Assembly (NCBI GenBank): GCA_020849295.1
Contig: JADLGN010000015.1
Location: forward strand, 91,168 to 155,167
DNA length: 64,000 nucleotides
Direction: 5' to 3'
DNA from: Bacteroidia bacterium
Lineage (GTDB): Bacteria; Bacteroidota; Bacteroidia; NS11-12g; UBA9320
This document shows positions 43,915-57,655 of the stretch, piece by piece; the stretch's first letter is position 1, and each line of letters opens with the position of its first letter. The position numbers and the translations under genes are program-made. The notes under the pieces were generated by a model. That model was not told the origin of the DNA and searched no databases. It saw only the letters and a list, made by a program, of their open reading frames with translations.

Positions 43915-43954
43915 AATAAAGTAGTAGAAAAAATTAATTTTTAAAAAAAAAGCT

Positions 43955-45256
43955 ATGGCAAATCCAAAAGATGCAGTAAAAGAAAAGAGCATGATTATTC
44001 AAAAAGAAATGCTCGCAAAGCAATTTAACGACCTAAGTAAAGCAAGAGAAACAGGCAAAAAAGTATGTTATACATTCGTTCCGGGGAATTTAATAGAACT
44101 GATATTATCATTTGATATGCTTCCGGTATATCCTGAAATTAATGCATTACAATCGGGTATGAGAAAAAAATCAGCAGGATATATAAAAGATGCTGAGAAA
44201 ATGGGACATTCAGAAGATGTTTGCACTTATGTAAAATGCGATATTGGAATGATGCTAAACGGCAACATTGGACCTACAGGCGAAAAATTGCCAGACCCCG
44301 ATTTATTGCTTTTAAGTTACACAGGTTGTTTTACTTTTCTAAAATGGTTTGAAAACTTAAACCGTTTATATCCAAATGCTGAAATAGCAATGCTTCACAC
44401 TCCGTATCAAGAAGACGGACAAATTACTCAGGAGCAAATTGAATATATGATAAAGCAGCTAAAAGAAGATGTAATACCAAAATTTGAAAAAGTAACAGGT
44501 AAGAAATTTGATGAAGCAAAATTAAAAAAATTGTTAGATAACTCTGTGCAAGCAGAAGATTACTGGGTAAAAATTCTTCAACTTGCAAAAAATAAACCTT
44601 CGCCTATTGATGCATATTTTGCAGGAGTATATTATATGGGACCTATAAATACAGCCTTTAGAGGAAGTGAAGAGTGTCTTGAATATTACAAAGAACTATA
44701 TAAAGAAGTAAAAGAAAGAGCAGATCAAAAACTACTACCTGTAACACCGGAGGGAGAAATGAAACATGAAAGATTCAGACTAGTAGTAGAAGGACCACCA
44801 AATTGGACAAATTTCCGTGAATTTTGGAAAATATTTTATGATATGGGTGCTGTAATTGTAGCATCTACTTATACCAAGGTTGGTGGAGTTTATGATTTGG
44901 GCTATAGGCAAAATCCTGAGAAACCACTTGAAAGCCTTGCTACATATTGCATGGGATGCTATACAAATTTGAATTTACCGCAAAGGGTAGATTTAATTGA
45001 AAAATATGTAAAAGAATATCAGGCAGACGGATTTTTGATAAACTCAATAAAATCTTGTAATTCATTTTCGGCAGGGCAACTTATGATAATGCGTGAAATT
45101 GAACAAAGAACAGGAGTTCCGGTAGGATTTATTGAAAGCGACCTTGTTGACCCACGATATTTTTCTTATGCAAATATCAAAAACAGGCTCGAATCGTACT
45201 TCCAAATGCTTGAGCAACGTAAAATTATTTTATCACAAGAATCATTAACAGTTTAA
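43955..45256 (+). CDS. 2-hydroxyacyl-CoA dehydratase / BcrB(beta)-like subunit (HgdA-type)
   Basis: The motifs KKVCYTFVPGNLIELI and DVCTYVKCDIG are present. The protein is colinear with the paralogue at 49728..50948 (shared AIVASTY and ..IE[SG]DL.D.R blocks). Confidence 0.75.
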   Translation: MANPKDAVKEKSMIIQKEMLAKQFNDLSKARETGKKVCYTFVPGNLIELILSFDMLPVYPEINALQSGMRKKSAGYIKDAEKMGHSEDVCTYVKCDIGMMLNGNIGPTGEKLPDPDLLLLSYTGCFTFLKWFENLNRLYPNAEIAMLHTPYQEDGQITQEQIEYMIKQLKEDVIPKFEKVTGKKFDEAKLKKLLDNSVQAEDYWVKILQLAKNKPSPIDAYFAGVYYMGPINTAFRGSEECLEYYKELYKEVKERADQKLLPVTPEGEMKHERFRLVVEGPPNWTNFREFWKIFYDMGAVIVASTYTKVGGVYDLGYRQNPEKPLESLATYCMGCYTNLNLPQRVDLIEKYVKEYQADGFLINSIKSCNSFSAGQLMIMREIEQRTGVPVGFIESDLVDPRYFSYANIKNRLESYFQMLEQRKIILSQESLTV

Positions 45257-45261
45257 ATAAA

Positions 45262-46686
45262 ATGAGCAAATATTATCTTGGAGTTGACCTTGGCTCCACA
45301 ACATCAAAGTCAGTAATAATAAATGAACAAGACGAGATAATTGGAAGAGGAATTACAAATACTCGTGCAAATTACTCAGTAGCCGCTGATATAGCAAGGG
45401 ATGAAGCAACCTACAATGCAAGATTTTCAATATTAAAGAAAAATCTGGAAGACGAAATAGCTTCAAAGCCTGAATACAAAAAATATATTTCTGATTTAGA
45501 AAGCGTATTTCAATATGAGCAATTCAAAATAAAATTAGATAAACTTGGGGATGAGTTGGTAAAAACATGTAATAATTTTTTTAAAGATGATACTCAAAGA
45601 AATGAAATTTTAGTACATCTTAGAAATATTCGCAAAGCCTTTAAACCAAAGATTAAACATGATTATTTATATAATAATCTTGGAGAAAAAAATCAATTTT
45701 TCAGAGATATAGTTTCCGAAAAATATAATGAAGAAGTGAACAAACTCGAAATGGCATTATTCGAGCCATTAATGACGGTATGGGACAAAAGTATTTCGCC
45801 GGCAGAAAATGAAAGAATAAAATTTGATTTTAAAGAACTTGTTCATAAAGCAATGGAAGAATTAAAAGACAAATACAAGAATTTACCTGATACTGCAGCC
45901 GAAGGAGAGAGTATAAACTTTGACGCAGAGATGAATTTGCTTAAGGGAAATTTCGATCAGGTATCAGAAACTCTTCGTTCACACATTGACCATATTGCCG
46001 AACTTGAATTTCATATTGAAAACATGACAGGAACAGGCTATGGAAGAGCATTATTGCCATTTCCACAAGAATGTATCCGCTCAGAAATTTTGTGTCATGC
46101 ATTTGGAGCACATGCTGTTTTCCCTGATACAAGAACAGTTTTAGACATTGGAGGTCAGGATACAAAGGCAATTCAGGTAGATAAATACGGGCTTGTTACA
46201 TCATTTCAGATGAATGACCGCTGTGCGGCAGGCTGTGGAAGATATTTGGGATACATTGCAGATGAAATGAGCATTTCATTAAATGAATTAGGACCAATGG
46301 CAATGGAAGCACAAAAAGAAGTTAGTATTTGTTCTACATGTACAGTATTTGCCGGAGCAGAATTAAGAGAACTTACAAATCTTGGCGAAAAAAGAGAAGA
46401 TATTTTGGGAGGTTTACACAAAGCAATTATTATGCGTGCCATGTCGCTTATTGCACGTTCAGGAGGAGTCTTTAATGAATTTACATTTACCGGAGGAGTT
46501 GCAAGAAATCCGGCTGTTATAAAATATCTTACACAGCTTGTAAGAGATAATTACGGAAGCGATATAAAAATAAATATTCATACCGATTCTATATTTATGG
46601 GAGCCTTGGGAGGTGCAATGTTTGCCAGAAGAAATATTAATGTTGATTTGCCAAATGCCAAAAAAACACAAGAAGTAACACAATAA
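45262..46686 (+). CDS. BadF/BadG/BcrA/BcrD-type ATPase, large form (BcrA/alpha-like), with an internal K/E-rich helical insertion of about 200 aa
   Basis: Phosphate-1 is YYLGVDLGSTTSKSVII. Later blocks are TGTGYGR and DIGGQDTKAI. The cluster-ligand region is NDRCAAGCGRYLGY...ICSTCTVFAGAE. Confidence 0.75.
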   Translation: MSKYYLGVDLGSTTSKSVIINEQDEIIGRGITNTRANYSVAADIARDEATYNARFSILKKNLEDEIASKPEYKKYISDLESVFQYEQFKIKLDKLGDELVKTCNNFFKDDTQRNEILVHLRNIRKAFKPKIKHDYLYNNLGEKNQFFRDIVSEKYNEEVNKLEMALFEPLMTVWDKSISPAENERIKFDFKELVHKAMEELKDKYKNLPDTAAEGESINFDAEMNLLKGNFDQVSETLRSHIDHIAELEFHIENMTGTGYGRALLPFPQECIRSEILCHAFGAHAVFPDTRTVLDIGGQDTKAIQVDKYGLVTSFQMNDRCAAGCGRYLGYIADEMSISLNELGPMAMEAQKEVSICSTCTVFAGAELRELTNLGEKREDILGGLHKAIIMRAMSLIARSGGVFNEFTFTGGVARNPAVIKYLTQLVRDNYGSDIKINIHTDSIFMGALGGAMFARRNINVDLPNAKKTQEVTQ

Positions 46687-46701
46687 ATTAAAAAAAAAAT
46701 C

Positions 46702-47538
46702 ATGGAAAATTTTTATACTATGGGTATTGACGTAGGTTCTAATTTTATAAAATTAGTACTTATGGACTATTCAGATAATCCAAAATTATTAGATAAACAT
46801 ACTGAAAAAATAAGGAAACGCGACCCATCACAAGTTGCTGAAGAAATGACTCAAAATATGCTTGCCAAGCATAAATTGAAATATGAGGATATAGCTTATT
46901 TTGCTTCTACCGGAGAAGGAGATCTTGTAAAAAGAAAAAGAGGTCATTTTTATGGAATGACAACACATGCCAAAGGAGCACATTTTTTATATTCTGATGC
47001 AATAACTGTGGTAGATATGGGTGCACTTTATGTAAGAGCAATTAAAATATCTGATGATGCAAGAGTATATGATTATAAAATGACCGGACAATGTGCCTCA
47101 GGTTCGGGGCAGTTTGTTGAAAATATTTCACGATATCTAGGTCTGTCAATTGAAGAAGTTGGCGATGTTTCAATGCAATCAAAAAATCCAGAAGTTTCTT
47201 CAGGAATTTGTGCCGTACTTGCCGAAACTGACGTAATTAATATGGTTTCAAGAGGTATATCAACACCTGATATAATAAAGGGAATTCATATTTCAATTGC
47301 CAACAGAATACTTAAACTATTGAGTTCCCTTAAAGCAGAATCGCCTATAGTAGTTACAGGAGGAATGGCATTAAACAAAGGAATGATAGAAGCACTTGAA
47401 GAACAATTGCAGGAAATGGGAAAATCTTTCCAGATTAAATCTCATCCAGATGCAATATATGCAGGTGCTATAGGAGCAGCACTTTGGGGAGGATACAGAC
47501 ATATTAAGCTAAAAGAAAAGCAAGCAGTTCTTGCATAA
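46702..47538 (+). CDS. BadF/BadG/BcrA/BcrD-type ATPase, small form (BcrD/delta- or HgdC-like activase)
   Basis: Motifs are MGIDVGSNFIKLVLMD, TGQCASGSGQFVE, SSGICAVLAETD and VVTGGMALN. The length is 278 aa. Confidence 0.8.
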   Translation: MENFYTMGIDVGSNFIKLVLMDYSDNPKLLDKHTEKIRKRDPSQVAEEMTQNMLAKHKLKYEDIAYFASTGEGDLVKRKRGHFYGMTTHAKGAHFLYSDAITVVDMGALYVRAIKISDDARVYDYKMTGQCASGSGQFVENISRYLGLSIEEVGDVSMQSKNPEVSSGICAVLAETDVINMVSRGISTPDIIKGIHISIANRILKLLSSLKAESPIVVTGGMALNKGMIEALEEQLQEMGKSFQIKSHPDAIYAGAIGAALWGGYRHIKLKEKQAVLA

Positions 47539-47599: not shown

Positions 47600-49723
47600 A
47601 TGAGCGTACAAAATCAAACAATGAGTATTGAAACAAAAAAACATGAGTTGGATACTCTTTTTAAACCTAAATCAATAGCAATAATTGGAGCATCATCCAA
47701 AGAGCTTTCAATAGGAAATGTTATTATTAAAAATCTTGTTCATTTTAATTATACAGGGAAAATTTACCCAATAAACCCAAAAGAACCTGAAATAAGAGGA
47801 ATAAAAGCATATTCTACAATCTTTGAAGTCCCTGATGATATTGACCTAGCACACGTAATAATACCAAGCAAATTTGTGCCACAGATAATTGAGGATTGTG
47901 GAAAAAAGGGAATAAAATCAGTAATTATCAATTCTGCCGGTTTTAGCGAAATGGGTGATGAAGGTATGGCTTTACAAGAAGCATTTCTACAAAATGCAAA
48001 AAAATACGGAGTTAGAATTTTCGGACCAAATTGTCAGGGAATAATTAATTGCGACCCTGAGTATAATGCATATTGCGATTTTACATTTACATTTCCTAAT
48101 CCGGGCAGCATATCAATTGTAGCACTAAGCGGTGGTGTTGGTGCATTTATAATGCAAAGCCTTTTCGACCTTAATATAGGGATGAGAATGTATGCTTCTA
48201 ATGGTAATGCTTGCGATATTTCTATTTCTGAAGTTATAAAATACTACGGACAAGATGATGGAACTAAAGCAATTATTTTATATACCGAAGGTTTTCATAA
48301 ACCATTAGAATTTTTAAATACTGCAAAACTTGTTGCAAGAAAAAAACCAATTCTTGCAATGAAATCAGGAAGGACAGAAGCAGGAGCAAAAGCAGCAGCT
48401 TCACATACAGGAGCACTTGCAGGTATTGATATTTCTACTGAGTTAATATTTGAAAAAACAGGTGTGTTGTCATTCACAAATGAAGAAGAAATGTGTCAGG
48501 CAGCAATGGCTTTCTCTACACAACCAATTCCAAAGGGCAATAAAGTAGGTATAATTACAAATACAGGCGGACCTGCAGTAATTGCAACAGACGAACTAGT
48601 TAATTCAGGACTTGAGATTCCAGCTATATCAGCAAAAGCAGAAGAAATATTAAAAAATACATTGTTGCCTGAAGCCACAATAGGCAATCCGATTGATGTA
48701 GTTGCTACCGGCGGTGGAGTACATTTTAGAAGTGCACTTGATGTGCTGATGAATGAAAGTCAAATAGACAGTATTTTTATAAATTTTGTAACAGCACCAT
48801 TTACAGATACTGATGAGGTAGCAAGAAATATAGTAGAAGTAAATCAACTTAAGAAGAAACCAATAATTTGTAATTTTATGACAAATATGAGTTTTGAAAG
48901 ATTTCAAAAAACTGCCAAAATACTTCAGGATGGCGGTGTGCCATGTTATAGTTTTCCTACTACTGCAGCTAAAGCTCTTGGAGCATTATACAAATTTCAT
49001 AAAATTCAAAATAGAGAAATTGGCTTCCCTCAGCTTTTTAGGGATATAGACAAAAATACAGTTAAAGAAATTATTGAAAATTCAGCTATTAATGAATTTA
49101 TGTCTTCCGAGAAAGTTTTTAGTATTCTTAAAGCATACAATATTCCTATAGCAGACTGGGGAATAGCATCAAATATAGATACTGCCCATGAAATAGCATC
49201 AAAAATTTCATACCCAGTAGTAGTAAAAGCAGAGGCATCAGATATAATACACAAAAGCGATAAAGGAGGTGTGGCAGTAAATATTAAAAACCAAGCAGAA
49301 TTGATATCGACTATTGAAAATATGAAGAACAATTTTGATAATTCTGCTTTGAAATTTCTTATACAAAAATTTGAACCGGGAGGAAAAGAATTAATAATTG
49401 GAGTTACATCAAATGGAGATTTAGGGCATTTAATAATGTTTGGAATGGGAGGCATTTATGTAGAAATATTAAAAGATGTTGTTTTCAAATTAAGCCCCGT
49501 AACGCAAGTTGAAGCCGAAGAAATGCTATCAACAATTAAATCGTCAAAATTATTAGATGGAGTAAGAGGTCAACAAGGAATTGATAAAAAAAGAGTTATT
49601 GAAATAATTGAAAGGATATCTCAATTGGTAACAGATTTTCCTCAAATAAAAGAAATGGATTTAAATCCTGTAATGGCATTTTCAGATAGAGCTATTGCAG
49701 TTGATGCAAGAATTAAATTATAA
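47600..49723 (+). CDS. ADP-forming (NDP-forming) acyl-CoA synthetase with fused alpha and beta domains (CoA-binding + succinyl-CoA-synthetase-like + ATP-grasp)
   Basis: The N-terminal CoA-binding Rossmann region is SIAIIGASSKELSIGN. The CoA-ligase/flavodoxin-like middle contains a phosphohistidine loop (GAKAAASHTGALAG). The C-terminal ATP-grasp has YPVVVKAEASDIIHKSDKGGV. The length is 707 aa. Confidence 0.8.
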   Translation: MSVQNQTMSIETKKHELDTLFKPKSIAIIGASSKELSIGNVIIKNLVHFNYTGKIYPINPKEPEIRGIKAYSTIFEVPDDIDLAHVIIPSKFVPQIIEDCGKKGIKSVIINSAGFSEMGDEGMALQEAFLQNAKKYGVRIFGPNCQGIINCDPEYNAYCDFTFTFPNPGSISIVALSGGVGAFIMQSLFDLNIGMRMYASNGNACDISISEVIKYYGQDDGTKAIILYTEGFHKPLEFLNTAKLVARKKPILAMKSGRTEAGAKAAASHTGALAGIDISTELIFEKTGVLSFTNEEEMCQAAMAFSTQPIPKGNKVGIITNTGGPAVIATDELVNSGLEIPAISAKAEEILKNTLLPEATIGNPIDVVATGGGVHFRSALDVLMNESQIDSIFINFVTAPFTDTDEVARNIVEVNQLKKKPIICNFMTNMSFERFQKTAKILQDGGVPCYSFPTTAAKALGALYKFHKIQNREIGFPQLFRDIDKNTVKEIIENSAINEFMSSEKVFSILKAYNIPIADWGIASNIDTAHEIASKISYPVVVKAEASDIIHKSDKGGVAVNIKNQAELISTIENMKNNFDNSALKFLIQKFEPGGKELIIGVTSNGDLGHLIMFGMGGIYVEILKDVVFKLSPVTQVEAEEMLSTIKSSKLLDGVRGQQGIDKKRVIEIIERISQLVTDFPQIKEMDLNPVMAFSDRAIAVDARIKL

Positions 49724-49727
49724 AGAA

Positions 49728-50948
49728 ATGTATAAAATACAAAGTACAAAGGTGATGAAGGAAATAATGGGAAATTATTTCCTAGGTATGAAAGATAAAT
49801 CAAAAAAAATAGCATGGTGTACAAGCGTAGGACCAGCCGAACTTTTGCGTTCGTTTGGTTTTGAAGTACATTTTCCTGAAAATCATGGAGCATTGCTTGG
49901 TGCTACACGTACAGCAGGAGATTTAATACCCGAATCAGCAAAATTCGGTTATTCAAATGATATATGTTCTTATCTTACAGCCGATATAGGTTCATATCTG
50001 AAAAGTGAAACGCCACTTAAAGAACATTATGGTCTTGAAGGACCGCCCAAGCCCGATTTGATTGTTTATAACACAAACCAATGTAGAGAAGTACAGGATT
50101 GGTTTACATATTTTGGAAGAGAACTTAATGTGCCTGTTATCGGAATTTATCCACCAAGACATCTTGATGAAGTTACGGATGAAATAATAGAAGATGTTGC
50201 TACACAATTCAGAAAAATGATTCCGATATGCGAAGAAGTAAGCGGACAAAAATTTGATAATGATAAATTCAAAGCAACATTAAAACTAAGCAAAGAAGCA
50301 ACTGACTTATGGAAAAAAGTTCTTTATACTGCTACAAATACTCCGGCACCAATAAGCTTTTTTGATGCAACTATCCACATGGGACCTATAGTAGTTTTAC
50401 GCGGTACACAGCAAGCAAAAGACTATTATATTACATTGCTTAAAGAAATGGAAGAAAATGTAGAGAAAGGAATAGGATTTCTTGAAAAAGAAAAATGCCG
50501 ATTGTATTGGGATGGAATGCCAATTTGGGGCAAGTTGCGTTCATTATCTGACTTATTTGTTCAAAACAATACAGCAATAGTAGCTTCAACATATTGCAAT
50601 AGCTGGGTTTTTGATGCATTTGACGAAGAAAACCCATTTGAATCATCAGCTAAAGCATATACTGAAATTTTTATTAATAGAAGCGAAGAAGCTAAACAAA
50701 GACTTTTAACCGAGTTAATAGAAAAATTTAGGATAGATGGTGTGATTTTTCACGATGCTAAAACATGTGCAAACAATTCTAACTCAAGATTTGGAATGCC
50801 GCAAAGACTTACAGAATCAATAGGAATACCAACATTAATAATAGAAGGCGACCTATGTGATTTGAGATTTTATTCAGAAGGGCAAAGTATTACCAAAATT
50901 GAAACTTTTATTGAGCAAATTGAGAGTACAAAAATTTTAAGTAATTAA
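49728..50948 (+). CDS. Second BcrB/HgdA-type subunit, paralogous to 43955..45256. The ORF-track start at 49695 overlaps the upstream stop by 29 bp, so the ATG at 49728 (or 49755) is more likely the true start.
   Basis: KKIAWCTSVGPAELLRSFG and DICSYLTADIG align position-for-position with the 43955 protein. The blocks AIVASTY and TLIIEGDLCDLR are conserved. Confidence 0.7.
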   Translation: MYKIQSTKVMKEIMGNYFLGMKDKSKKIAWCTSVGPAELLRSFGFEVHFPENHGALLGATRTAGDLIPESAKFGYSNDICSYLTADIGSYLKSETPLKEHYGLEGPPKPDLIVYNTNQCREVQDWFTYFGRELNVPVIGIYPPRHLDEVTDEIIEDVATQFRKMIPICEEVSGQKFDNDKFKATLKLSKEATDLWKKVLYTATNTPAPISFFDATIHMGPIVVLRGTQQAKDYYITLLKEMEENVEKGIGFLEKEKCRLYWDGMPIWGKLRSLSDLFVQNNTAIVASTYCNSWVFDAFDEENPFESSAKAYTEIFINRSEEAKQRLLTELIEKFRIDGVIFHDAKTCANNSNSRFGMPQRLTESIGIPTLIIEGDLCDLRFYSEGQSITKIETFIEQIESTKILSN

Positions 50949-50960
50949 TATAATAAAGGT

Positions 50961-51416
50961 ATGGATACTGAAAACAAAAGTAAAGTTTATAAACTCACAG
51001 ACGGAAGTGAGGTAGATTCAAATCAAGTTGAAAAACTAATTCAGGACACATGCCATTACGTAAAATATGTTGTTATTAACCAAAATGATAAAAACGAAAA
51101 TGTAGCTTTTATTTTTCCCGATAAAAACCTTTACAACAATCCCGATTATCTTTTGGCACCTAATGACAATGAAGGTTGTTTTTGCCCACGAAACCTTGAT
51201 GAGCTTGGAAGATGTCTTACAGGGTGTATGAAAAAGGTTAATTTGAGTTTTGAAAATATTGAAGATAAATTTTCAAATGCAGTGATTTTATCAGGAGAAA
51301 ACGAAATAGAAAACGAAGTAGAAAAGTATAAGAATATTTTAAAAAATTCATTGGGGAATGAAATTTCAGATGATGAAGTATATTATATCAAAAACTTAAA
51401 GGAAAAAAAGAAGTAA
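50961..51416 (+). CDS. Hypothetical small cysteine-containing protein (C-x-C...C...C in EGCFCPRNLDELGRCLTGC)
   Basis: The 151-aa ORF is tightly packed between cluster genes (12 bp and 6 bp gaps). It has no signal peptide, and no family is recognised. Confidence 0.4.
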   Translation: MDTENKSKVYKLTDGSEVDSNQVEKLIQDTCHYVKYVVINQNDKNENVAFIFPDKNLYNNPDYLLAPNDNEGCFCPRNLDELGRCLTGCMKKVNLSFENIEDKFSNAVILSGENEIENEVEKYKNILKNSLGNEISDDEVYYIKNLKEKKK

Positions 51417-51422
51417 AAATTA

Positions 51423-53273
51423 ATGAAAAAATCATCAAAATTAAAAGTTGGTATTGTAGGAATAGGTCCGGTTGGGATGATAATGGCTGTAAAACTAAAT
51501 GAGGCAGGTTGTGAAGTGGCACTTTGCGATAAAGATGAATTTAAAGTAAAAAAAGTAAGAGAAAACGGAATAGTACTTGAAAATATTTATAATTCAACTA
51601 CAAAGTTTGAACATATTTACAATTCTGTAACAGAGATGAGAAAACTTGATTTGGATTATCTTGTTTTTGCATTAAAATCATATCAAACACTTGGAGCAGC
51701 AAAAGAAGCAGAAATTCTCAATTCTGAAAAACTTACAGTAATTGCAGCTCAAAACGGTATAGATACAGAACAAATACTTGCATCAGTTTTCGGTGAAAAT
51801 AAAACACTGAGAATGGTTATAAATTATGCAGGAAATCTTACATCGCCCAATACAGTTAAAGTAACTTTTTTTACCCCACCCAACTATATAGGTTCTATAG
51901 ACGACAGCATAACCGAACAATCAAAAATATTTACATCATTACTTAATGAAGTAAATTTTGAAACAGTTAATCTCAATTCGTTTGAAATACTAAAACGTAC
52001 TTGGGAGAAAACTATTTTGAATGCATCGTTAAGTCCACTGTGTGGGGTAGGAAGACTAACTATGGCAGAAGCAATGTCTGACCCTGAAACAGTTGAACTA
52101 GTTGAGCAAATTATAAATGAGGGAATAGAAGTAGCAGAAAGAGAAAAAATACGTTTCTCAGACGATTTTTATCGAAAATGCCTGCAATATTTAAAAAAAG
52201 GTGGAGAGCATTTCCCATCATTAGCAATAGATTTAATTAATAACCGCCAGACAGAAATTGATTATTTCAACGGAAAAATTGTAGAATATGGGAAAAAACA
52301 TTATGTAAAAACCTCATTGAATTTAGCATTTACAAACATGGTAAAAGCTATGACTAATAAAAACGTAATGAACAGGTCAATTGCTTCAGATGCAGTTTTA
52401 AACAAGAAAATAGTAAGTAAAGGTTTAATAGAAAAAAATAATTCCTCATTATATTATAAAGAGCAAAATTGTTTTCTGGGGATTGACCTTGGCTCAGCAT
52501 ATACCAAGTTTACAGTTATAAATGCAAAAGGGAAACCCGTATTCAGGTACTTTGTTCACACAATGAACAAAGACAGAAATGCTATGAAAAATGTAATTCA
52601 GGCTATATATTCAACATTTAATATTAAATACAGTTGCGCTACAGGTTATGGCAGAAAACACTTTACTGATACAGATATTATTAAAACCGAAATAAACTGT
52701 GCAGCTGCAGGAGTTGCAGAATATCACGATGGTGAAAAAAACATAATAGATATCGGTGGCGAAGATATAAAGGTTATACATTGTAATAATGATAATCAGG
52801 TTGCAAATTTTTACATGAATGATAAGTGTGCTGCCGGTACAGGTGCATTTTTACAGGAAATATCAGAAAGAGCAGAAATTAAAATTGAAGATATGAGCAG
52901 CCTTGCTTCACATTCTGATTTCGACAAAGAATTAAACAGCTTTTGTACTGTTTTTGCAAAAACTGAAATTATGAATTGGGTTTTTGACGGAATGCCAATG
53001 CAAGATATTGCAAGAGGTATTTATATATCAATAGCCAATAAAGTAGCAAAAATGAGATTAATACCGGGTTTGCCAATTATTATGATTGGTGGTGTAATTG
53101 CGCATCATCCTTATATGAGTACAATACTAAGCCAGAAATTTAATAAGGATATTAAAACCATTGAACACCCTCAGTTTGTTGTGTCACTTGGTGCTGCTAT
53201 AATTGCAAAACAAACATGGGCAAACGCAAATGAAAAAATTGATTTAAATAAAGAGATTAAACTACCAGCATAA
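51423..53273 (+). CDS. Fusion protein: an N-terminal ketopantoate-reductase-like (ApbA/PanE family) NAD(P)-binding 2-oxoacid reductase domain joined to a C-terminal BadF/BcrA/HgdC-type ATPase (activase) domain
   Basis: N-terminus: KVGIVGIGPVGMIMAVKLNEAGCEVALCD (Rossmann GxGxxG). The ApbA-like middle and C-terminal helical domain carry SLAIDLINNRQTEIDYFNG (ApbA E/N substrate block). C-terminal half from about aa 345: CFLGIDLGSAYTKFTVI, DIGGEDIKVI, DKCAAGTGAFLQEISE, NSFCTVFAKTEI. Confidence 0.7.
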   Translation: MKKSSKLKVGIVGIGPVGMIMAVKLNEAGCEVALCDKDEFKVKKVRENGIVLENIYNSTTKFEHIYNSVTEMRKLDLDYLVFALKSYQTLGAAKEAEILNSEKLTVIAAQNGIDTEQILASVFGENKTLRMVINYAGNLTSPNTVKVTFFTPPNYIGSIDDSITEQSKIFTSLLNEVNFETVNLNSFEILKRTWEKTILNASLSPLCGVGRLTMAEAMSDPETVELVEQIINEGIEVAEREKIRFSDDFYRKCLQYLKKGGEHFPSLAIDLINNRQTEIDYFNGKIVEYGKKHYVKTSLNLAFTNMVKAMTNKNVMNRSIASDAVLNKKIVSKGLIEKNNSSLYYKEQNCFLGIDLGSAYTKFTVINAKGKPVFRYFVHTMNKDRNAMKNVIQAIYSTFNIKYSCATGYGRKHFTDTDIIKTEINCAAAGVAEYHDGEKNIIDIGGEDIKVIHCNNDNQVANFYMNDKCAAGTGAFLQEISERAEIKIEDMSSLASHSDFDKELNSFCTVFAKTEIMNWVFDGMPMQDIARGIYISIANKVAKMRLIPGLPIIMIGGVIAHHPYMSTILSQKFNKDIKTIEHPQFVVSLGAAIIAKQTWANANEKIDLNKEIKLPA

Positions 53274-53280
53274 AAATATA

Positions 53281-54543
53281 ATGAGAGCATTTCACGACAA
53301 AGAAAAAGGTATAGGTATAATATTCGATGATATTTATTTTGTTAACGGAGCAAGAACTCCGTTTGGAAAATATTGCGGAACACTTGCAAATGTATCGCCT
53401 ACAGATTTAGGAATTTTTGCCAGTAAAGCAGCAATTAATAAAAGTAATATTTCAGCAGATAAAATTGACCAGGCAGTTATGGCAAATATTGGTCAGTCTT
53501 CAGGCGATGCATATTTTTTCCCTCGTCATGTTTCATTATTTGCAGGATTGCCGGTTACTGTACCTGCACTTATGGTTCAAAGAATATGTGCATCCGGATT
53601 TGAAACTATAATTACTTCTGCCGAGCAGATTACACTTGGCAAAGCCGATTCAACACTATGCTGCGGTGCAGAAAGTATGTCACTTTCACCAACCGTAAGT
53701 TTTGGCAACAGAATGGGTTATATGCTTGGTCGCCCTGTTTTTAAAGATATGCTTTGGGAAGCTTTAGACGATACCGCAGCAGGTTATCCAATGGGTTTTA
53801 CAGCAGAAAATATTGCAGTAAAGCACAATATTAGCAGGCAACAGTGTGACGAATATGCTCTAATATCTTTTAACAGAGCTATTGCAGCAAGAAACAAAGG
53901 ATTTTTTAATGAAGAAATTACACCTATCAATTCTACGGTATTTGAAGCAGATGGTTTAAAATCACGAAAAGTTAAACTAACTGGAGGAGTAAAAGATTTT
54001 AATATTGACGAACAAATAAGAGAAACCACATTAGAATCATTGTCAAAATTGCCAAATGTATTTAAAGAAGTAGGAGTACTGTCAGCTGGTAATTGCAGTG
54101 GCATTGTTGATGGAGCAGCAGCAGCAGTTGTAGCATCTGATAGTTTTGTAAAATCAAATAATTTAAAACCCCTTGCAAAAGTGGTAGCCGCTGCAACAAG
54201 TGCAATAGACCCTAAAGTAATGGGGCTGGGTCCGGTACCTGCTATTAAATATTTATTGGAAATTACAGGTTTAAAAATTGATGATATCGGATTGTTTGAG
54301 ATTAATGAAGCATTTTCATCACAGGTAATAGGCTGCGAAATAGAATTAGGACTTGATAGGAATAAACTTAATGTAAATGGTGGTGCAATTGCTATCGGAC
54401 ATCCGCTTGCAGCAAGCGGCTTAAGACTTTCGCTAACACTTATTAGAGAAATGAATCAAAAAAATATAAAATACGGAATTGCTTCTGCTTGTATAGGTGG
54501 CGGACAAGGTACAGCAATTCTTTTTGAAAATTTAAATAATTAA
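53281..54543 (+). CDS. Acetyl-CoA C-acyltransferase (thiolase)
   Basis: NGARTPFGKY with the active-site Cys in RICASGFETI, the motifs NEAFSSQV and GHPLAASG, and the C-terminal CIGGGQGTA are present. Confidence 0.9.
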   Translation: MRAFHDKEKGIGIIFDDIYFVNGARTPFGKYCGTLANVSPTDLGIFASKAAINKSNISADKIDQAVMANIGQSSGDAYFFPRHVSLFAGLPVTVPALMVQRICASGFETIITSAEQITLGKADSTLCCGAESMSLSPTVSFGNRMGYMLGRPVFKDMLWEALDDTAAGYPMGFTAENIAVKHNISRQQCDEYALISFNRAIAARNKGFFNEEITPINSTVFEADGLKSRKVKLTGGVKDFNIDEQIRETTLESLSKLPNVFKEVGVLSAGNCSGIVDGAAAAVVASDSFVKSNNLKPLAKVVAAATSAIDPKVMGLGPVPAIKYLLEITGLKIDDIGLFEINEAFSSQVIGCEIELGLDRNKLNVNGGAIAIGHPLAASGLRLSLTLIREMNQKNIKYGIASACIGGGQGTAILFENLNN

Positions 54544-54547
54544 AAAA

Positions 54548-54727
54548 ATGGAAATCACAGATAAAATTTTAAATCAATTTGCAAAATCTGGCAAAGCACT
54601 AAAAGGTGGCGAAATAGCCGATCTTACAGGTATTGATAAAAAACTAGTAGATAAAACCTTAAAGAAATTGATGAGTGAAGATAAAATATATTCGCCTGTA
54701 AGGTGCTATTACGATTTAAAAAAATAA
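54548..54727 (+). CDS. Unannotated 59-aa ORF (below the 60-aa cutoff of the ORF track) with winged-helix/HTH-like sequence: MEITDKILNQFAKSGKALKGGEIADLTGIDKKLVDKTLKKLMSEDKIYSPVRCYYDLKK
   Basis: Its ATG lies 4 bp after the thiolase stop, and its stop lies 3 bp before the next ATG, which is operon-tight packing. An HTH-like segment (GEIADLTGIDKKLVDKTLKKL) is followed by a beta-hairpin-like tail. Confidence 0.45.
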   Translation: MEITDKILNQFAKSGKALKGGEIADLTGIDKKLVDKTLKKLMSEDKIYSPVRCYYDLKK

Positions 54728-54730
54728 TAA

Positions 54731-55789
54731 ATGCAAAATACTAAAATGTATAAATGGGAAATGATAGAAACTGACAAAGATTTTGTCAGAAAAGAATGTG
54801 ATATTCCTGAAATTGAAGAAAATGAAGCAATAGTAAAAGTTGCAGGATGTGGTGTGTGTCATACAGATTTAAGTTTTTGGCATTTTGGAGTACAAACCAA
54901 AAAATCTTTACCCCTTACTTTAGGACACGAAATAAGCGGAACAGTTGTAGTAGGAGATAGTAGTATTATTGGAAAAAATGTAATTATACCTGCTGTATTG
55001 CCTTGTGGCAACTGCGAATTGTGTAATAATGGAAGAAGTAATATTTGTCGCAATCAACTTATGCCCGGTAATGATTTTGACGGAGGATTTGCATCTCATA
55101 TCAAAGTACCATCAAAATATTTGTGTGAAGTAGATAATGAAATATTGAAAAAATACCCATTAGAAACACTTTCTGTAATTGCTGATGCTATTTCTACACC
55201 TTATCAGGTTGTAAAAAAATCAGAATTGAAAGAAGGAGATTTTGCTATTGTGATTGGAGTGGGCGGTGTAGGAATTTACGGGGCACAAATAGCAAAAATA
55301 TTTGGAGCAAAAGTTCTTGCAATGGATATTAGTGATGAAAAACTAAATGTTGCAAAAGAAAATGGAACAGATGCAGTTTTGAACATAAAAGGAATGGATA
55401 TAAAAACTGTAAAAGAAAATGTTAAAAATATTGCTAAAGAACTTAATGCACCAAAAAATAGTTGGAAAATTTATGAAATATCGGGAACCAAAGCAGGCCA
55501 AGAACTCGCTTTTAATCTTATAACTTTTGCTTCTACATTATCAGTTGTAGGTTTTACAATGGATAAAGTAGATGTAAGACTTAGTAATCTTATGGCATTT
55601 GATGCAAAATTGATTGGCACTTGGGGATGTAAGCCAGAACTATACCCTGAAGTTGTTAAATTGGTATCAGACGGTAAATTAAAAATTGAACCTTTTATTC
55701 AAACATTTCCCTTGTCTCAAATTAATGAAGTATTTAAAAACACATTAGAACATAAATATTCAAAGCGCTCAGTACTTATTCCCGATTAA
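54731..55789 (+). CDS. Zinc-dependent medium-chain dehydrogenase/reductase (ADH_N + Rossmann), a candidate beta-hydroxyacyl-CoA / 6-hydroxycyclohexenoyl-CoA-type dehydrogenase (Had-like)
   Basis: Catalytic Zn ligands are present (GCGVCHTDL, GHE in TLGHEISG). Structural Zn cysteines are CGNCELCNNGRSNIC. The Rossmann motif is VIGVGGVGIYG. Confidence 0.85.
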   Translation: MQNTKMYKWEMIETDKDFVRKECDIPEIEENEAIVKVAGCGVCHTDLSFWHFGVQTKKSLPLTLGHEISGTVVVGDSSIIGKNVIIPAVLPCGNCELCNNGRSNICRNQLMPGNDFDGGFASHIKVPSKYLCEVDNEILKKYPLETLSVIADAISTPYQVVKKSELKEGDFAIVIGVGGVGIYGAQIAKIFGAKVLAMDISDEKLNVAKENGTDAVLNIKGMDIKTVKENVKNIAKELNAPKNSWKIYEISGTKAGQELAFNLITFASTLSVVGFTMDKVDVRLSNLMAFDAKLIGTWGCKPELYPEVVKLVSDGKLKIEPFIQTFPLSQINEVFKNTLEHKYSKRSVLIPD

Positions 55790-55799
55790 TAAAAAAAAT

Positions 55800-56882
55800 A
55801 TGCTTAAAAACCACAATATAACAGAAGTTTCTTATAAAGAAATACTATTCGAAAAAAGACCATGTCTAGATAAAAACGGACAGGCAATAGATGGATTATA
55901 CAACTCATGGATTTGCTTAAATAATCCAAAACAATACAACTCCTACACAACACAAGCTGTAAAAGAAATTATTCTTGCTTTTGGCGAAGCTTCAAACGAT
56001 CGCAGTATAGTTGCAGTTGTTTTTACGGCGGTAGAAGATAAAGCATTTTGTACAGGAGGCAATACAAAAGAATATGCAGAGTATTACTCTGGCAATCCGC
56101 AAGAATACAGCCAGTATATGCGACTATTTAATGACATGGTAAGTGCAATATTAAAATGCGAAAAACCTGTAATTTGCAGAGTAAACGGCATGAGAATAGG
56201 AGGAGGACAGGAAATAGGTATGGCTTGCGATTATACTATATCAAGTGATTTGGCTAGATTTGGTCAGGCAGGACCAAAACATGGTAGTGCAGCAATAGGC
56301 GGTGCTACAGATTTTCTTCATCTATATGTAGGTATAGAAAGAGCAATGATGTCATTAACACTTTGTGAACCTTGGACTGCTCATCAGGCATACAATTTTG
56401 GAATGATAACTGATATTGTACCTGCTCTTAAGCTTGACGGTAAATTTATACCCAACCCATTGGTAGTTTTAGATAAACAAACAGATGAGTTTGGAAAAAT
56501 AGTTTTTGGTACAATGAAAAAAGGTGATGAATTGAAAGCCGGAAAAGAAATAATGGAAAAATCGGAAATAGATTTATCAGAACTTGACAAAGCTGTAAAT
56601 AATCTTATTGCAAAACTTCTTTATACGTTCCCTAATTGTTTATCAAAAACTCTTACAGAAGTAAGAAAGAAAAAACTTGAGCATTGGGATAAAAATAAAG
56701 AAAGCAGCCGCGAATGGCTTGCTCTAAATATGATGACTGAAGCAAAAGCAGGGTTTAGAGCATTTAATTTTGGGCCAAAAGACAACAGAGAAGTTGATTT
56801 TATACTTTTAAGGCAACTTCTTGCCGAGGGTCATGAATGGAATGAAGAACTTCATCAAAAAATTTCACCTCAATATAAATAA
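55800..56882 (+). CDS. Crotonase-fold (enoyl-CoA hydratase/isomerase superfamily) protein, long form of 360 aa. It is a candidate ring-cleaving 6-oxocyclohexenoyl-CoA hydrolase (Oah/BamA-like).
   Basis: The oxyanion-hole blocks are AFCTGGNTKEY and ICRVNGMRIGGGQEIGMACDYTISS. Its length matches the approximately 370-380 aa Oah class rather than 260-aa hydratases. Confidence 0.7.
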   Translation: MLKNHNITEVSYKEILFEKRPCLDKNGQAIDGLYNSWICLNNPKQYNSYTTQAVKEIILAFGEASNDRSIVAVVFTAVEDKAFCTGGNTKEYAEYYSGNPQEYSQYMRLFNDMVSAILKCEKPVICRVNGMRIGGGQEIGMACDYTISSDLARFGQAGPKHGSAAIGGATDFLHLYVGIERAMMSLTLCEPWTAHQAYNFGMITDIVPALKLDGKFIPNPLVVLDKQTDEFGKIVFGTMKKGDELKAGKEIMEKSEIDLSELDKAVNNLIAKLLYTFPNCLSKTLTEVRKKKLEHWDKNKESSREWLALNMMTEAKAGFRAFNFGPKDNREVDFILLRQLLAEGHEWNEELHQKISPQYK

Positions 56883-57655
56883 TGGAAAAAATAAAAGTTA
56901 ATTATTTGTATGAAAATACTGTAGTTCAAATTGTGATGGACGATGGTAAAGGTAATATTTTGGATTCTGTAATGATGAAAGAACTAACAAACTTACTTGA
57001 TAGTTTTAAAACAAATAATAATCTGAAATTAATAATTTTTGAAGGAGCAGGCAAACACTATTCGTTTGGTGCAAGTGTAGAAGAGCATAAAAAAGACGAA
57101 GCTGCTCAAATGCTTAAATCATTTCATAACTTATTTTATTTGTTAATAGAATTGTCAATTCCAACCTTATCAAAAGTTAGTGGACAGTGCCTTGGAGGAG
57201 GAATGGAACTTGCCATTATGTGCAATTTTATTTATGCTGATAATACAGCAAAATTAGGACAACCCGAAATTGTTCTCGGAGTTTTTCCACCCCCTGCTTC
57301 ACTTATTTTACCTCAAAAAATTGGTCAAGCTCAAGCTGATGAATTATTATTGACAGGTAAATCAATAAACGCACAACAAGCAAAATCAATAAATTTAATT
57401 AATGAAATTTTTGAAAGCAAAGAAGAACTTCAAAATGGGTTAAACTCATTTATTGAAAATCAAATTTTACCAAAAAGTGCTTCATCACTACGTTTTGCAG
57501 TAAAAGCAGCAAGAAAAACTTTTAATAAAATATTGCTTGAAAATCTCCCTCAATTAGAAGAAATGTATGTTTCACAATTGATGAACACCAATGATGCTAA
57601 TGAAGGTATAAATTCTTTTCTCGAAAAACGCAAACCTGTTTGGGTTGGATCGTAG
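56882..57655 (+). CDS. Enoyl-CoA hydratase (crotonase family, canonical about 260 aa); Dch-like candidate
   Basis: IIFEGAGKHYSFGASVEEH and SKVSGQCLGGGMELAIMCNFIYA match the crotonase A-x-x-G-x-D and GGG-x-E motifs. The start overlaps the upstream stop by 1 bp. Confidence 0.8.
   Translation: MEKIKVNYLYENTVVQIVMDDGKGNILDSVMMKELTNLLDSFKTNNNLKLIIFEGAGKHYSFGASVEEHKKDEAAQMLKSFHNLFYLLIELSIPTLSKVSGQCLGGGMELAIMCNFIYADNTAKLGQPEIVLGVFPPPASLILPQKIGQAQADELLLTGKSINAQQAKSINLINEIFESKEELQNGLNSFIENQILPKSASSLRFAVKAARKTFNKILLENLPQLEEMYVSQLMNTNDANEGINSFLEKRKPVWVGS

What the first reader, a model, noticed from the sequence alone, without database searches (positions are those of the whole stretch)
53281..57655. 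Thiolase, Zn-MDR dehydrogenase, 360-aa crotonase and 257-aa crotonase form a Had/Oah/Dch-like lower-pathway module
Beta-oxidation normally uses a HAD-family (3-hydroxyacyl-CoA dehydrogenase) enzyme. Here the only dehydrogenase is a zinc-containing medium-chain ADH-type protein with both catalytic and structural Zn sites. The known 6-hydroxycyclohex-1-ene-1-carbonyl-CoA dehydrogenase of the benzoyl-CoA pathway is of exactly that type. The 360-aa crotonase has the length class of the ring-opening hydrolase Oah/BamA rather than that of an ordinary hydratase. The 257-aa crotonase would fit the dienoyl-CoA hydratase. Together with the thiolase this is a complete ring-hydration, oxidation, hydrolytic cleavage and thiolysis set immediately downstream of the reductase genes.
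Basis: partly seen in the sequence, partly recalled or inferred. Interest (0 to 1): 0.75.

Follow-up and report, generated by a model that had tools for sequence, protein, structure and literature searches.

The report
Benzoyl-CoA ring-opening genes in a Bacteroidota
These four genes are a correctly recognised but ordinary copy of the known pathway that hydrates, oxidises and opens the reduced benzene ring of benzoyl-CoA without oxygen, found here in an uncultured low-GC Bacteroidota bacterium at the end of a 13-gene operon that also holds some unexplained extra genes.

Summary
Four intact, co-directional ORFs sit exactly at 53281-57655.

- **Had (352 aa):** passes the curated equivalog model (461 bits, cutoff 339). 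It is 48% identical to the solved Thauera aromatica enzyme and keeps all 8 zinc ligands.
- **Oah/BamA (360 aa):** passes its model (589 bits, cutoff 464). BadI and MenB score only about 120 bits.
- **Dch (257 aa):** the Dch model is its best hit, but at 221 bits it falls below the 292.5 cutoff. It shares Dch signature motifs and lies next to oah, as in most related loci examined.
- **Thiolase (420 aa):** a generic degradative thiolase. Its substrate is inferred.

The genes end a 13-ORF operon that starts with class I bcrCBAD.

- The set is not complete. No 3-hydroxypimelyl-CoA dehydrogenase lies in the window; relatives carry one right after dch.
- Four genes (5.7 kb) separate the reductase from the module.
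- A 59-aa ORF between the thiolase and had was missed.

Close homologues in Bacteroidota genome bins already carry these names in NCBI, so this is a new member of a known kind. The open question is the conserved accessory module upstream.

The parts
53281..54543 (+). Degradative 3-ketoacyl-CoA thiolase (420 aa). The proposed substrate is 3-oxopimelyl-CoA; this is inferred.
   Evidence: It passes TIGR01930 (397 bits, cutoff 240.55) but no equivalog model. The best solved relative is human mitochondrial 3-ketoacyl-CoA thiolase 4C2J at 365 bits, and the Cys/His/Cys motifs (RICASGF, GHP, SACIGGGQG) are present. An ortholog lies immediately before had in 39 of 62 related loci.
54548..54727 (+). Unannotated 59-aa ORF between the thiolase and had; function unknown.
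   Evidence: It starts with ATG, and gaps of 4 and 3 nt separate it from its neighbours. A 58%-identical copy lies at the same position in L002. It has no Pfam or NCBIfam hit. The AlphaFold2 model has pLDDT 62, too low to assign a fold.
54731..55789 (+). had: NAD-dependent, Zn-containing 6-hydroxycyclohex-1-ene-1-carbonyl-CoA dehydrogenase (352 aa).
   Evidence: It scores 461.2 bits on TIGR03201, above the 338.65 cutoff. It scores 361 bits against PDB 7QUL/7QUY, the T. aromatica Had, with 48% identity. Of the 19 residues annotated in that structure, 17 are identical, including all 8 Zn ligands and the proton-relay Thr.
55800..56882 (+). [quoted passage not shown]
   Evidence: It scores 588.7 bits on TIGR03200, above the 464.45 cutoff, with residues 4-354 covering model positions 3-358 of 360. 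It is 64% identical to the Oah of cultured Magnetospirillum fulvum and 86% identical to those of Bacteroidota genome bins. Homologues 84-92% identical already carry this name in NCBI or JGI records.
55932..56223 (+). The bamA marker amplicon region inside oah (292 bp).
   Evidence: Sites for primers SP9F and ASP1R (sequences from PMC3794298) were found with 3 mismatches each. The encoded peptides QYNSYTT and QEIGM are conserved.
56882..57655 (+). [quoted passage not shown]
   Evidence: TIGR03189 is the best hit at 221.4 bits, below the 292.5 cutoff; the next family scores 148.7. Both crotonase catalytic Glu motifs (GGGMELA, GQPEIVLG) are present. It shares the motifs HxSFGASVxEH, GQCLGGGxE and GQPEIxLGVFxPxAS with the M. 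fulvum Dch, which scores 437 bits. A member of the same homolog cluster follows oah in most of the 70 loci with a full-length oah.
42751..47538 (+). Context: bcrC, bcrB, bcrA and bcrD, a Thauera-type class I (ATP-dependent) benzoyl-CoA reductase that makes the dienoyl-CoA substrate of Dch.
   Evidence: BcrC scores 452.8 (cutoff 421.15), BcrB 674.5 (cutoff 486.55) and BcrD 320.6 (cutoff 312.85). BcrA scores 438.5, below its 578 cutoff.
47600..53273 (+). Context: accessory genes between the reductase and the module. They are an ADP-forming acyl-CoA synthetase (47600-49723), a HadB-like single-subunit 2-hydroxyacyl-CoA-dehydratase-family protein (49704-50948), orf151 (50961-51416) and a fusion of a ketopantoate-reductase-family domain with an activase (51423-53273).
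   Evidence: orf151 is 36% identical to the C-terminal domain of the AMP-forming ligase of L010. The genes are conserved in FCB-group loci.

Best explanation
The four genes are the downstream end of one 13-ORF operon (42751-57655) for anaerobic benzoyl-CoA degradation in an uncultured, roughly 31% GC Bacteroidota bacterium. The class I reductase BcrCBAD reduces benzoyl-CoA to cyclohexa-1,5-diene-1-carbonyl-CoA. The 257-aa crotonase (Dch) adds water to give 6-hydroxycyclohex-1-ene-1-carbonyl-CoA. The Zn-dependent MDR dehydrogenase (Had) oxidises this with NAD+ to the 6-oxo compound. The 360-aa crotonase (Oah/BamA) hydrates it and hydrolytically opens the ring to 3-hydroxypimelyl-CoA. After oxidation by a 3-hydroxyacyl-CoA dehydrogenase that is not encoded in this window, the 420-aa thiolase most likely splits 3-oxopimelyl-CoA into glutaryl-CoA and acetyl-CoA. 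What is shown here: the family identities of Had and Oah, the conserved catalytic residues, and the operon and synteny. What is inferred: the Dch substrate, the thiolase substrate, and all enzyme activities.
For: Had and Oah score above the curated equivalog cutoffs, and Dch has the Dch model as its best hit. Had is 48% identical to the crystallised T. aromatica enzyme, with 17 of 19 annotated active-site and Zn residues identical. Oah is 64% identical to that of cultured M. fulvum, whose locus has the order had-oah-dch-bcrCBAD and whose Dch and Had pass the cutoffs. Dch shares signature motifs with that enzyme. The bamA marker region is conserved at peptide level. The 13 ORFs are co-directional, with gaps of -20 to 61 nt and uniform GC3. 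BcrB, BcrC and BcrD pass the benzoyl-CoA reductase equivalogs. The had-oah-dch order is present in 52 of 70 loci from several phyla, and thl lies directly before had in 39 of 62. In 52 loci with adequate flanks, a HAD+crotonase fusion was found in 25, always together with the thiolase, and it lies right after dch in the loci mapped. This fits a beta-oxidation pair bracketing the ring-opening genes. The pathway chemistry is as described for T. aromatica in PMC5742626. Thiolases are among the most benzoate-induced genes in Geobacter (PMC1924859).
Against: Dch scores 221 bits, below the 292.5 cutoff, and is only 38% identical to a bona fide Dch. That is more divergent than the characterised Geobacter enzyme, listed at 73% in PMC1924859. 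The thiolase passes no equivalog model, so its substrate is open. The window has no HAD-family dehydrogenase, no ferredoxin, no glutaryl-CoA dehydrogenase and no recognisable benzoate-CoA ligase. BcrA is below its cutoff. My literature searches found no cultured Bacteroidota shown to degrade benzoate anaerobically, and no expression or activity data exist for this locus.
Confidence: 0.85

Rival explanations
1. Dch, Had and Oah are as described, but the thiolase belongs to the upstream accessory genes rather than the lower pathway. In this reading it cleaves benzoylacetyl-CoA or its 4-hydroxy form, produced by side-chain beta-oxidation of cinnamoyl- or coumaroyl-CoA, to give benzoyl-CoA plus acetyl-CoA. 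It could also serve both steps.
For: The thiolase directly follows the KPR-family~activase fusion, and it co-occurs with the HadB-like gene in 31 of 36 loci. Some related loci carry two beta-oxidation sets: HAD+crotonase with a 420-aa thiolase, and an SDR with a 380-aa thiolase. In ORF clustering of the 80 loci, 26 carry a molybdenum enzyme; the one scanned (L010) is 4-hydroxybenzoyl-CoA-reductase-like at 822 bits on TIGR03194. Five carry an aminotransferase.
Against: The HAD+crotonase fusion, which supplies the step just before the thiolase, lies after dch rather than beside the HadB-like gene in the loci mapped, so thl and HAD+crotonase bracket had-oah-dch. In these data the fusion never occurs without thl. 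No substrate evidence supports either reading.
Confidence: 0.3
2. The module processes the dienoyl-CoA of a substituted analogue, such as a methyl- or hydroxy-benzoyl-CoA, rather than that of benzoyl-CoA itself.
For: Dch (38%) and Had (48%) are markedly divergent from the characterised enzymes, and Dch and BcrA fall below their equivalog cutoffs. From my own knowledge, separate Dch/Had/Oah-like paralogue sets exist for 4-methylbenzoyl-CoA in Magnetospirillum sp. pMbN1.
Against: BcrB, BcrC, BcrD, Had and Oah all pass models built for the benzoyl-CoA enzymes. Eight of the ten first-shell substrate residues of T. aromatica Had are identical and the other two changes are conservative. The window holds only one such set.
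Confidence: 0.08
3. It is an ordinary fatty-acid beta-oxidation, menaquinone (MenB) or Rhodopseudomonas-type (BadK/BadH/BadI) gene set with a generic alcohol dehydrogenase.
For: All four folds also occur in those systems. MenB is the best solved relative of the long crotonase, but only because no Oah structure exists.
Against: The long crotonase scores 588.7 bits on Oah, against 123.6 on BadI (cutoff 467.6) and 111-120 on MenB. Had scores 461 bits, against 146 or less on other dehydrogenase models. The genes share an operon with bcrCBAD.
Confidence: 0.02
4. The pathway runs in reverse, building a ring to make cyclohexanecarboxylate or benzoate, as reported for Syntrophus aciditrophicus growing on crotonate (my own knowledge).
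For: The Dch, Had and Oah reactions are reversible in principle. An ADP-forming acyl-CoA synthetase in the operon could conserve ATP.
Against: The class I reductase hydrolyses ATP to drive ring reduction. Related operons carry AMP-forming ligases and 4-hydroxybenzoyl-CoA-reductase-like enzymes, which are typical of degradation.
Confidence: 0.04

Closest known systems
Thauera aromatica / Magnetospirillum-type benzoyl-CoA cluster (had-oah-dch-bcrCBAD)
   Same: It has the same three enzyme families (Dch, Had, Oah) and the same Thauera-type class I reductase subunits. had, oah and dch are adjacent in the same order. The Had active site is conserved.
   Different: The reductase lies upstream rather than downstream. 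A thiolase, a 59-aa ORF and four accessory genes lie in between. No ferredoxin gene is present. Had is only 48% and Dch only 38% identical, while Oah is 64% identical. The host is a low-GC Bacteroidota.
Geobacter metallireducens BamR (Dch) / BamQ (Had) / BamA (Oah)
   Same: The ring-hydration, oxidation and hydrolysis chemistry is the same. The bamA marker region is conserved at peptide level.
   Different: Geobacter uses a class II, ATP-independent reductase, and its oah is not adjacent to dch-had (PMC1924859). Here the reductase is class I and the genes are contiguous.
Benzoyl-CoA clusters in genome bins of the FCB superphylum (Krumholzibacteriota, mBio 2024, PMC10936416; Bacteroidota and Ignavibacteria bins in NCBI)
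   Same: They combine class I bcrABCD with the pathway to 3-hydroxypimelyl-CoA. In the loci fetched here, the operon architecture matches: bcrCBAD, then a ligase or ADP-forming synthetase, HadB-like, KPR-family plus activase, thl, had, oah, dch.
   Different: This window has the ADP-forming synthetase variant with a stand-alone orf151. It lacks the HAD+crotonase fusion and the 4-hydroxybenzoyl-CoA-reductase-like genes that follow dch in many relatives.
Rhodopseudomonas palustris BadK/BadH/BadI and MenB
   Same: BadI and MenB belong to the same crotonase subgroup as Oah, sharing the GP(K)xGS motif.
   Different: BadI and MenB are about 260-290 aa and score only about 111-124 bits here, against 589 for Oah. 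BadH is a short-chain dehydrogenase, not a Zn-containing MDR (own knowledge). Membership is rejected.

Membership tests
[quoted passage not shown] | Full-length match to the equivalog model above its curated cutoff | tested here: met
   It scores 588.7 bits against a cutoff of 464.45, with residues 4-354 covering model positions 3-358 of 360.
[quoted passage not shown] | Crotonase N-terminal domain plus a C-terminal extension of about 100 aa (total about 360-380 aa) | tested here: met
   ECH_1 covers only residues 38-215 of 360. MenB structures align only to residues 31-215.
[quoted passage not shown] | bamA marker region bounded by the SP9F and ASP1R primer sites | tested here: met
   Both sites are present 292 bp apart, and the peptides QYNSYTT and QEIGM are conserved. 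Each primer has 3 mismatches, so PCR amplification is doubtful.
[quoted passage not shown] | Hydrolytic ring opening to 3-hydroxypimelyl-CoA | not testable with these tools
   This needs an enzyme assay.
Had, 6-hydroxycyclohex-1-ene-1-carbonyl-CoA dehydrogenase (TIGR03201) | Match to the equivalog model above its cutoff, clearly separated from other MDR dehydrogenases | tested here: met
   It scores 461.2 bits against a cutoff of 338.65, and the next model scores 146.5. Against PDB it scores 361 bits on Had and 151 on the best ADH.
Had, 6-hydroxycyclohex-1-ene-1-carbonyl-CoA dehydrogenase (TIGR03201) | Catalytic Zn (Cys, His, Glu, Asp), structural Zn (4 Cys), the proton-relay Thr and the substrate first shell of the T. 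aromatica structure | tested here: met
   C43, H66, E67, D152, C92, C95, C98, C106 and T45 are all identical. Eight of the 10 first-shell residues are identical; the changes are T159S and N301T.
Had, 6-hydroxycyclohex-1-ene-1-carbonyl-CoA dehydrogenase (TIGR03201) | Gene adjacent to oah and dch | tested here: met
   A 10-nt gap separates it from oah. had lies upstream of oah in 58 of 70 loci.
[quoted passage not shown] | Match to the equivalog model above its curated cutoff | tested here: not met
   It scores 221.4 bits against a cutoff of 292.5, although this is the best hit by 73 bits. FCB-group orthologs in L010 and L032 also score 212-233, while the M. fulvum Dch scores 437.
[quoted passage not shown] | Crotonase fold with both catalytic Glu residues and the sequence motifs shared by bona fide Dch | tested here: met
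   The motifs GGGMELA, GQPEIVLG and HYSFGASVEEH align with the M. fulvum Dch.
[quoted passage not shown] | Positional orthology: the gene directly follows oah in a bcr-containing cluster | tested here: met
   It overlaps the oah stop codon by 1 nt. dch lies downstream of oah in 62 of 70 loci, including proteobacterial ones.
[quoted passage not shown] | Specific 1,4-hydration of the dienoyl-CoA | not testable with these tools
   This needs an enzyme assay.
Degradative thiolase (acetyl-CoA C-acyltransferase, TIGR01930) | Thiolase N and C domains, the Cys/His/Cys catalytic residues, and the subfamily model above its cutoff | tested here: met
   It scores 397.3 bits against a cutoff of 240.55, has both Pfam domains, and the catalytic motifs align with 4C2J.
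3-oxopimelyl-CoA-specific thiolase | Substrate specificity for the C7 dicarboxyl 3-oxoacyl-CoA | not testable with these tools
   No equivalog model passes; 3-oxoadipyl-CoA thiolase models score 315-320 bits against cutoffs near 600. Only the synteny is suggestive.
BadI / MenB (rivals for the long crotonase) | Match to the equivalog model above its cutoff | tested here: not met
   BadI scores 123.6 against a cutoff of 467.6. MenB scores 111.5 against 342.7 and 120.3 against 380.

The most novel reading that the evidence does not exclude
The four genes may be the tail of a superoperon typical of the FCB (Fibrobacterota-Chlorobiota-Bacteroidota) group, in which the upstream accessory genes form an undescribed entry route. 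Those genes are an acid-CoA ligase (here replaced by an ADP-forming acyl-CoA synthetase plus a leftover ligase C-terminal domain), a single-subunit HadB-like [4Fe-4S] 2-hydroxyacyl-CoA-dehydratase-family enzyme, and its activase fused to a ketopantoate-reductase-family 2-hydroxyacid dehydrogenase. The proposed route runs arylpyruvate to aryllactate to aryllactyl-CoA to cinnamoyl- or coumaroyl-CoA, and then by beta-oxidation to benzoyl-CoA or 4-hydroxybenzoyl-CoA. The 420-aa thiolase would serve that route as well as, or instead of, 3-oxopimelyl-CoA thiolysis. This would link anaerobic breakdown of aromatic amino acids or phenylpropanoids directly to ring reduction in Bacteroidota.
Probability: 0.25. 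Interest if true: 0.65.

Novelty: new member of a known kind. Interest (0 to 1): 0.32.

Why it matters
My literature searches turned up no cultured Bacteroidota shown to degrade aromatic compounds anaerobically. This locus and its dozens of relatives in Bacteroidota, Ignavibacteria, Marinimicrobia and Zixibacteria genome bins carry an intact, conserved class I benzoyl-CoA pathway. That suggests these abundant polymer and protein degraders may also mineralise aromatic rings without oxygen. The standard bamA PCR primers mismatch this gene at three positions each, so marker surveys may undercount such organisms. The core chemistry itself is textbook and is already assigned automatically in public annotations.

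Tried and rejected
- **Annotated reference on a plasmid:** a protein search of the Oah against 72,556 plasmids found only a distant enoyl-CoA hydratase.
- **Solved Oah or Dch structure:** none exists. Only MenB and generic crotonases matched.
- **RNA elements:** the Rfam and tRNA scans of the window found nothing.
- **Promoter and terminator scans:** counts were at chance level (86 found against 81 expected; 9 against 8) and are not suited to Bacteroidota promoters.
- **16-bp palindrome upstream of bcrC:** it is unique in the window, but 42 of 100 shuffles give at least one match at the tolerance used (up to 2 mismatches).
- **The 59-aa ORF:** the AlphaFold2 model had pLDDT 62, too low for a fold search.
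- **orf151:** it has no Pfam or PDB match. It was identified only through its similarity to the ligase C-terminal domain of L010.
- **Specificity of the L010 ligase:** it could not be assigned. The best PDB hits are oxalate-, feruloyl- and malonyl-CoA ligases at about 104-120 bits.
- **HadB-like homologues:** they carry only generic names in the sources.
- **Literature:** searches for class I benzoyl-CoA reductase in Bacteroidota, or for phenyllactate dehydratase linked to benzoyl-CoA, gave nothing specific.
- **Recent horizontal transfer:** not indicated, because GC and GC3 of the operon match the rest of the window.

Full report
**Observation**

Pfam gives the stated folds: thiolase N and C domains, ADH_N plus ADH_zinc_N, and ECH_1 for both crotonases. 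Each protein aligns end to end with its best NCBIfam model, so none is truncated or frameshifted.

**Had**

- The 352-aa medium-chain (MDR) dehydrogenase scores 461.2 bits on the equivalog TIGR03201 for 6-hydroxycyclohex-1-ene-1-carbonyl-CoA dehydrogenase (cutoff 338.65). The next dehydrogenase model reaches 146.5 bits.
- Its best solved relatives are PDB 7QUL and 7QUY at 361 bits; the best ordinary alcohol dehydrogenase scores 151 bits. Those entries are the Thauera aromatica enzyme, whose physiological role in the benzoyl-CoA pathway is stated in PMC9400901.
- Identity over the alignment is 48% (168 of 347 positions).
- I mapped the residues that paper lists onto the window protein. All four catalytic-Zn ligands (C43, H66, E67, D152), all four structural-Zn cysteines (C92, C95, C98, C106) and the proton-relay Thr (T45) are identical. 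Eight of the ten first-shell substrate residues are identical, and the other two changes are conservative (T to S, N to T).

**Oah**

- The 360-aa crotonase scores 588.7 bits on TIGR03200 (cutoff 464.45) over its whole length. BadI scores 123.6 bits and the MenB models 111-120 bits, covering the N-terminal crotonase core only.
- The two standard bamA primers (sequences taken from PMC3794298) find their sites at 55932 and 56206-56223, 292 bp apart. The encoded peptides QYNSYTT and QEIGM are conserved. Each primer has three mismatches, one of them at the 3' end of the forward primer.

**Dch**

- The 257-aa crotonase has TIGR03189 (cyclohexa-1,5-dienecarbonyl-CoA hydratase) as its best hit at 221.4 bits. 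That is 73 bits above the next family but below the 292.5 cutoff.
- Orthologs in a Ferruginibacter bin (L010) and an Ignavibacterium bin (L032) behave the same way, at 212 and 233 bits. The Dch of cultured Magnetospirillum fulvum (L078) scores 437 bits.
- An alignment shows 38% identity to the M. fulvum enzyme. Both catalytic glutamates are conserved, and the motifs HxSFGASVxEH, GQCLGGGxE and GQPEIxLGVFxPxAS are shared.
- The gene overlaps the oah stop codon by one base.
- I treat it as a divergent Dch ortholog typical of the FCB (Fibrobacterota-Chlorobiota-Bacteroidota) group. Formal membership by model cutoff is not met, and the activity is inferred.

**Thiolase**

It passes only the general acetyl-CoA C-acyltransferase model (397 bits, cutoff 240.55). 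The 3-oxoadipyl-CoA thiolase and BktB models score far below their cutoffs. Its best solved relative is the human mitochondrial degradative 3-ketoacyl-CoA thiolase (4C2J, 365 bits), and the catalytic Cys/His/Cys motifs are present. Its substrate cannot be read from the sequence.

**Operon and host**

- Thirteen co-directional ORFs run from 42751 to 57655, with gaps of -20 to 61 nt and uniform GC3 of 0.16-0.24.
- The order is bcrC, bcrB, bcrA, bcrD, a 707-aa ADP-forming acyl-CoA synthetase, a HadB-like protein, orf151, a fusion of a ketopantoate-reductase-family (KPR/PanE) domain with an activase, the thiolase, a 59-aa ORF, had, oah and dch.
- BcrB, BcrC and BcrD pass the Thauera-type benzoyl-CoA reductase equivalogs; BcrA is below its cutoff.
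- The flanking genes are housekeeping or typical of Bacteroidota: rsfS, a biotin/lipoate ligase-family gene, coaX, lptC, susC/susD-like genes and type IX secretion cargo. Composition is even across the window. The operon therefore looks native to a roughly 31% GC Bacteroidota.
- So the module is in the same operon as the reductase, but 5.7 kb and four genes downstream of it, not immediately adjacent.

**Comparative genomics**

- A scan of one genome per species found at least 594 Oah relatives. The best 80 loci were fetched.
- Oah identity falls with taxonomic distance: 86% in Bacteroidota bins, about 72% in Ignavibacteria, 67-69% in Marinimicrobia, Fidelibacterota and Zixibacteria, and 64-65% in Proteobacteria, Gemmatimonadota and Acidobacteria.
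- had upstream and dch downstream of oah, on the same strand, occur in 52 of 70 loci with a full-length oah. A thiolase ortholog lies directly before had in 39 of 62 loci.
- Proteobacterial loci, including M. fulvum, have the classical order had-oah-dch-bcrCBAD. FCB-group loci have bcrCBAD, then a ligase or ADP-forming synthetase, HadB-like, KPR-family plus activase, thl, had, oah and dch.
- In ORF clustering of the 80 loci, 30 carry a fused 3-hydroxyacyl-CoA dehydrogenase/crotonase (667 aa); it follows dch directly in the loci mapped. In 52 loci with good flanks, this fusion (25 loci) never occurs without the thiolase.
- That pattern supports reading the thiolase as the partner of a 3-hydroxypimelyl-CoA dehydrogenase in the lower pathway.
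- In this window the fusion gene is absent. Unrelated minus-strand genes follow dch, and a search of the whole window found no HAD-family gene, no ferredoxin motif and no molybdenum enzyme.

**Mechanism**

The chemistry follows the pathway established for T. aromatica (summarised in PMC5742626):
1. BcrCBAD reduces benzoyl-CoA to the 1,5-dienoyl-CoA.
2. Dch hydrates it to 6-hydroxycyclohex-1-ene-1-carbonyl-CoA.
3. Had oxidises that with NAD+.
4. Oah hydrates the product and hydrolytically opens the ring to 3-hydroxypimelyl-CoA.
5. A dehydrogenase encoded elsewhere, followed by the thiolase, would give glutaryl-CoA and acetyl-CoA.

Thiolases are among the most strongly benzoate-induced genes in Geobacter metallireducens (PMC1924859). 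The family identities and conserved catalytic residues are shown here. All activities are inferred.

**Unexplained neighbours**

- The HadB-like protein is closest to the alpha subunit of 2-hydroxyisocaproyl-CoA dehydratase (3O3M, 177 bits). The reductase subunits MbdO and BzdO score 122 and 82 bits. Three cysteines align with cysteines of that dehydratase subunit; I take them to be its [4Fe-4S] ligands from my own knowledge. No beta subunit is encoded in the operon.
- Its activase is fused to a KPR-family domain. In Marinimicrobia, Fidelibacterota and Ignavibacteriales loci the two are separate adjacent genes. HadB-like and KPR-family genes co-occur in 36 of 36 loci.
- An AMP-forming ligase occupies the position after bcrD in 29 loci, and the ADP-forming synthetase does so in 12.
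- orf151 is a stand-alone homolog of that ligase's C-terminal domain (36% identity). In the five loci mapped that carry it, it accompanies the ADP-forming synthetase; a similar ORF occurs in 8 loci in all.
- Relatives also carry a molybdenum enzyme (26 loci); the one scanned (L010) is 4-hydroxybenzoyl-CoA-reductase-like at 822 bits on TIGR03194, below the 994 cutoff. They also carry a KorAB-like 2-oxoacid:ferredoxin oxidoreductase (11 loci) and an aminotransferase (5 loci).
- These genes could form an entry route for aromatic 2-oxo or 2-hydroxy acids through an aryllactyl-CoA dehydratase and side-chain beta-oxidation. This is inference only, and I give it about 25%.

**Novelty**

- The Dch/Had/Oah module is textbook biochemistry, and public pipelines already name close homologues.
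- Class I bcrABCD with the full pathway has been reported in genome bins of the FCB superphylum (Krumholzibacteriota; PMC10936416).
- I found no paper on the Bacteroidota operon or its accessory genes.
- The verdict is a new member of a known kind, of modest interest. The points worth following up are the primer mismatch, the divergent Dch, and above all the conserved accessory genes.

Noticed in passing
window 54548-54727 (+): A 59-aa ORF fills the apparent gap between the thiolase and had. A 58%-identical copy lies at the same position in L002. It has no family hit, and the AlphaFold2 model is too weak (pLDDT 62) to name a fold.
   Followed up: partly
window 49704-50948 (+): This is a single-subunit 2-hydroxyacyl-CoA-dehydratase-family protein, HadB-like (177 bits to 3O3M alpha). 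Three cysteines align with those of the dehydratase alpha subunit, but no beta subunit is in the operon. Homologues are 69-89% identical across Bacteroidota bins and carry only generic names.
   Followed up: partly
window 51423-53273 (+): This is a fusion of a ketopantoate-reductase-family dehydrogenase (residues 1-312, closest to Enterococcus-type enzymes 2EW2 and 3WFI) with a dehydratase/reductase activase (residues 352-594). The two parts are separate adjacent genes in Marinimicrobia, Fidelibacterota and Ignavibacteriales loci (L049, L058, L059, L065, L067).
   Followed up: partly
window 47600-49723 (+) and 50961-51416 (+): An ADP-forming acyl-CoA synthetase sits where 29 related loci carry an AMP-forming ligase, which looks like non-orthologous displacement. 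orf151 is a stand-alone homolog of that ligase's C-terminal domain. In the loci mapped, it accompanies the ADP-forming synthetase.
   Followed up: partly
window 55932-55953 and 56206-56223: The standard bamA primers SP9F and ASP1R each mismatch at 3 positions, one at the 3' end of the forward primer, although the encoded peptides are conserved. PCR surveys may miss low-GC Bacteroidota bamA genes.
   Followed up: yes
L010 11878-19783; L032 4970-8766; other loci: In many relatives dch is followed by a HAD+crotonase fusion, MobA, XdhC, an SDR and a 4-hydroxybenzoyl-CoA-reductase-like molybdenum enzyme (a Fer2-MoCoBD fusion plus an FAD subunit). Some also carry a KorAB-like oxidoreductase, an aminotransferase, hemerythrin and an Nramp-like transporter. 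None of these is in the window.
   Followed up: partly
window 42688-42719: Upstream of bcrC lie TAATTTTG, which fits the Bacteroidetes -7 promoter motif TAnnTTTG (own knowledge), and a perfect 16-bp palindrome, CTTATTTTAAAATAAG. The palindrome is unique in the window but is not significant against shuffled sequence.
   Followed up: partly
window 45262-46686 (+): BcrA is 474 aa and scores 438 bits, below the 578 cutoff of TIGR02259, whereas BcrB, BcrC and BcrD pass their cutoffs. No ferredoxin gene accompanies the reductase.
   Followed up: no
window 2900-8413 (-), 10610-12631 (-), 60492-62744 (+): There is a very large 1837-aa ORF that I did not examine, and two proteins with type IX secretion C-terminal sorting domains. 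The rest of the window is housekeeping: dnaJ, grpE, ftsH, the mla genes, peptidases and susC/susD-like genes.
   Followed up: no
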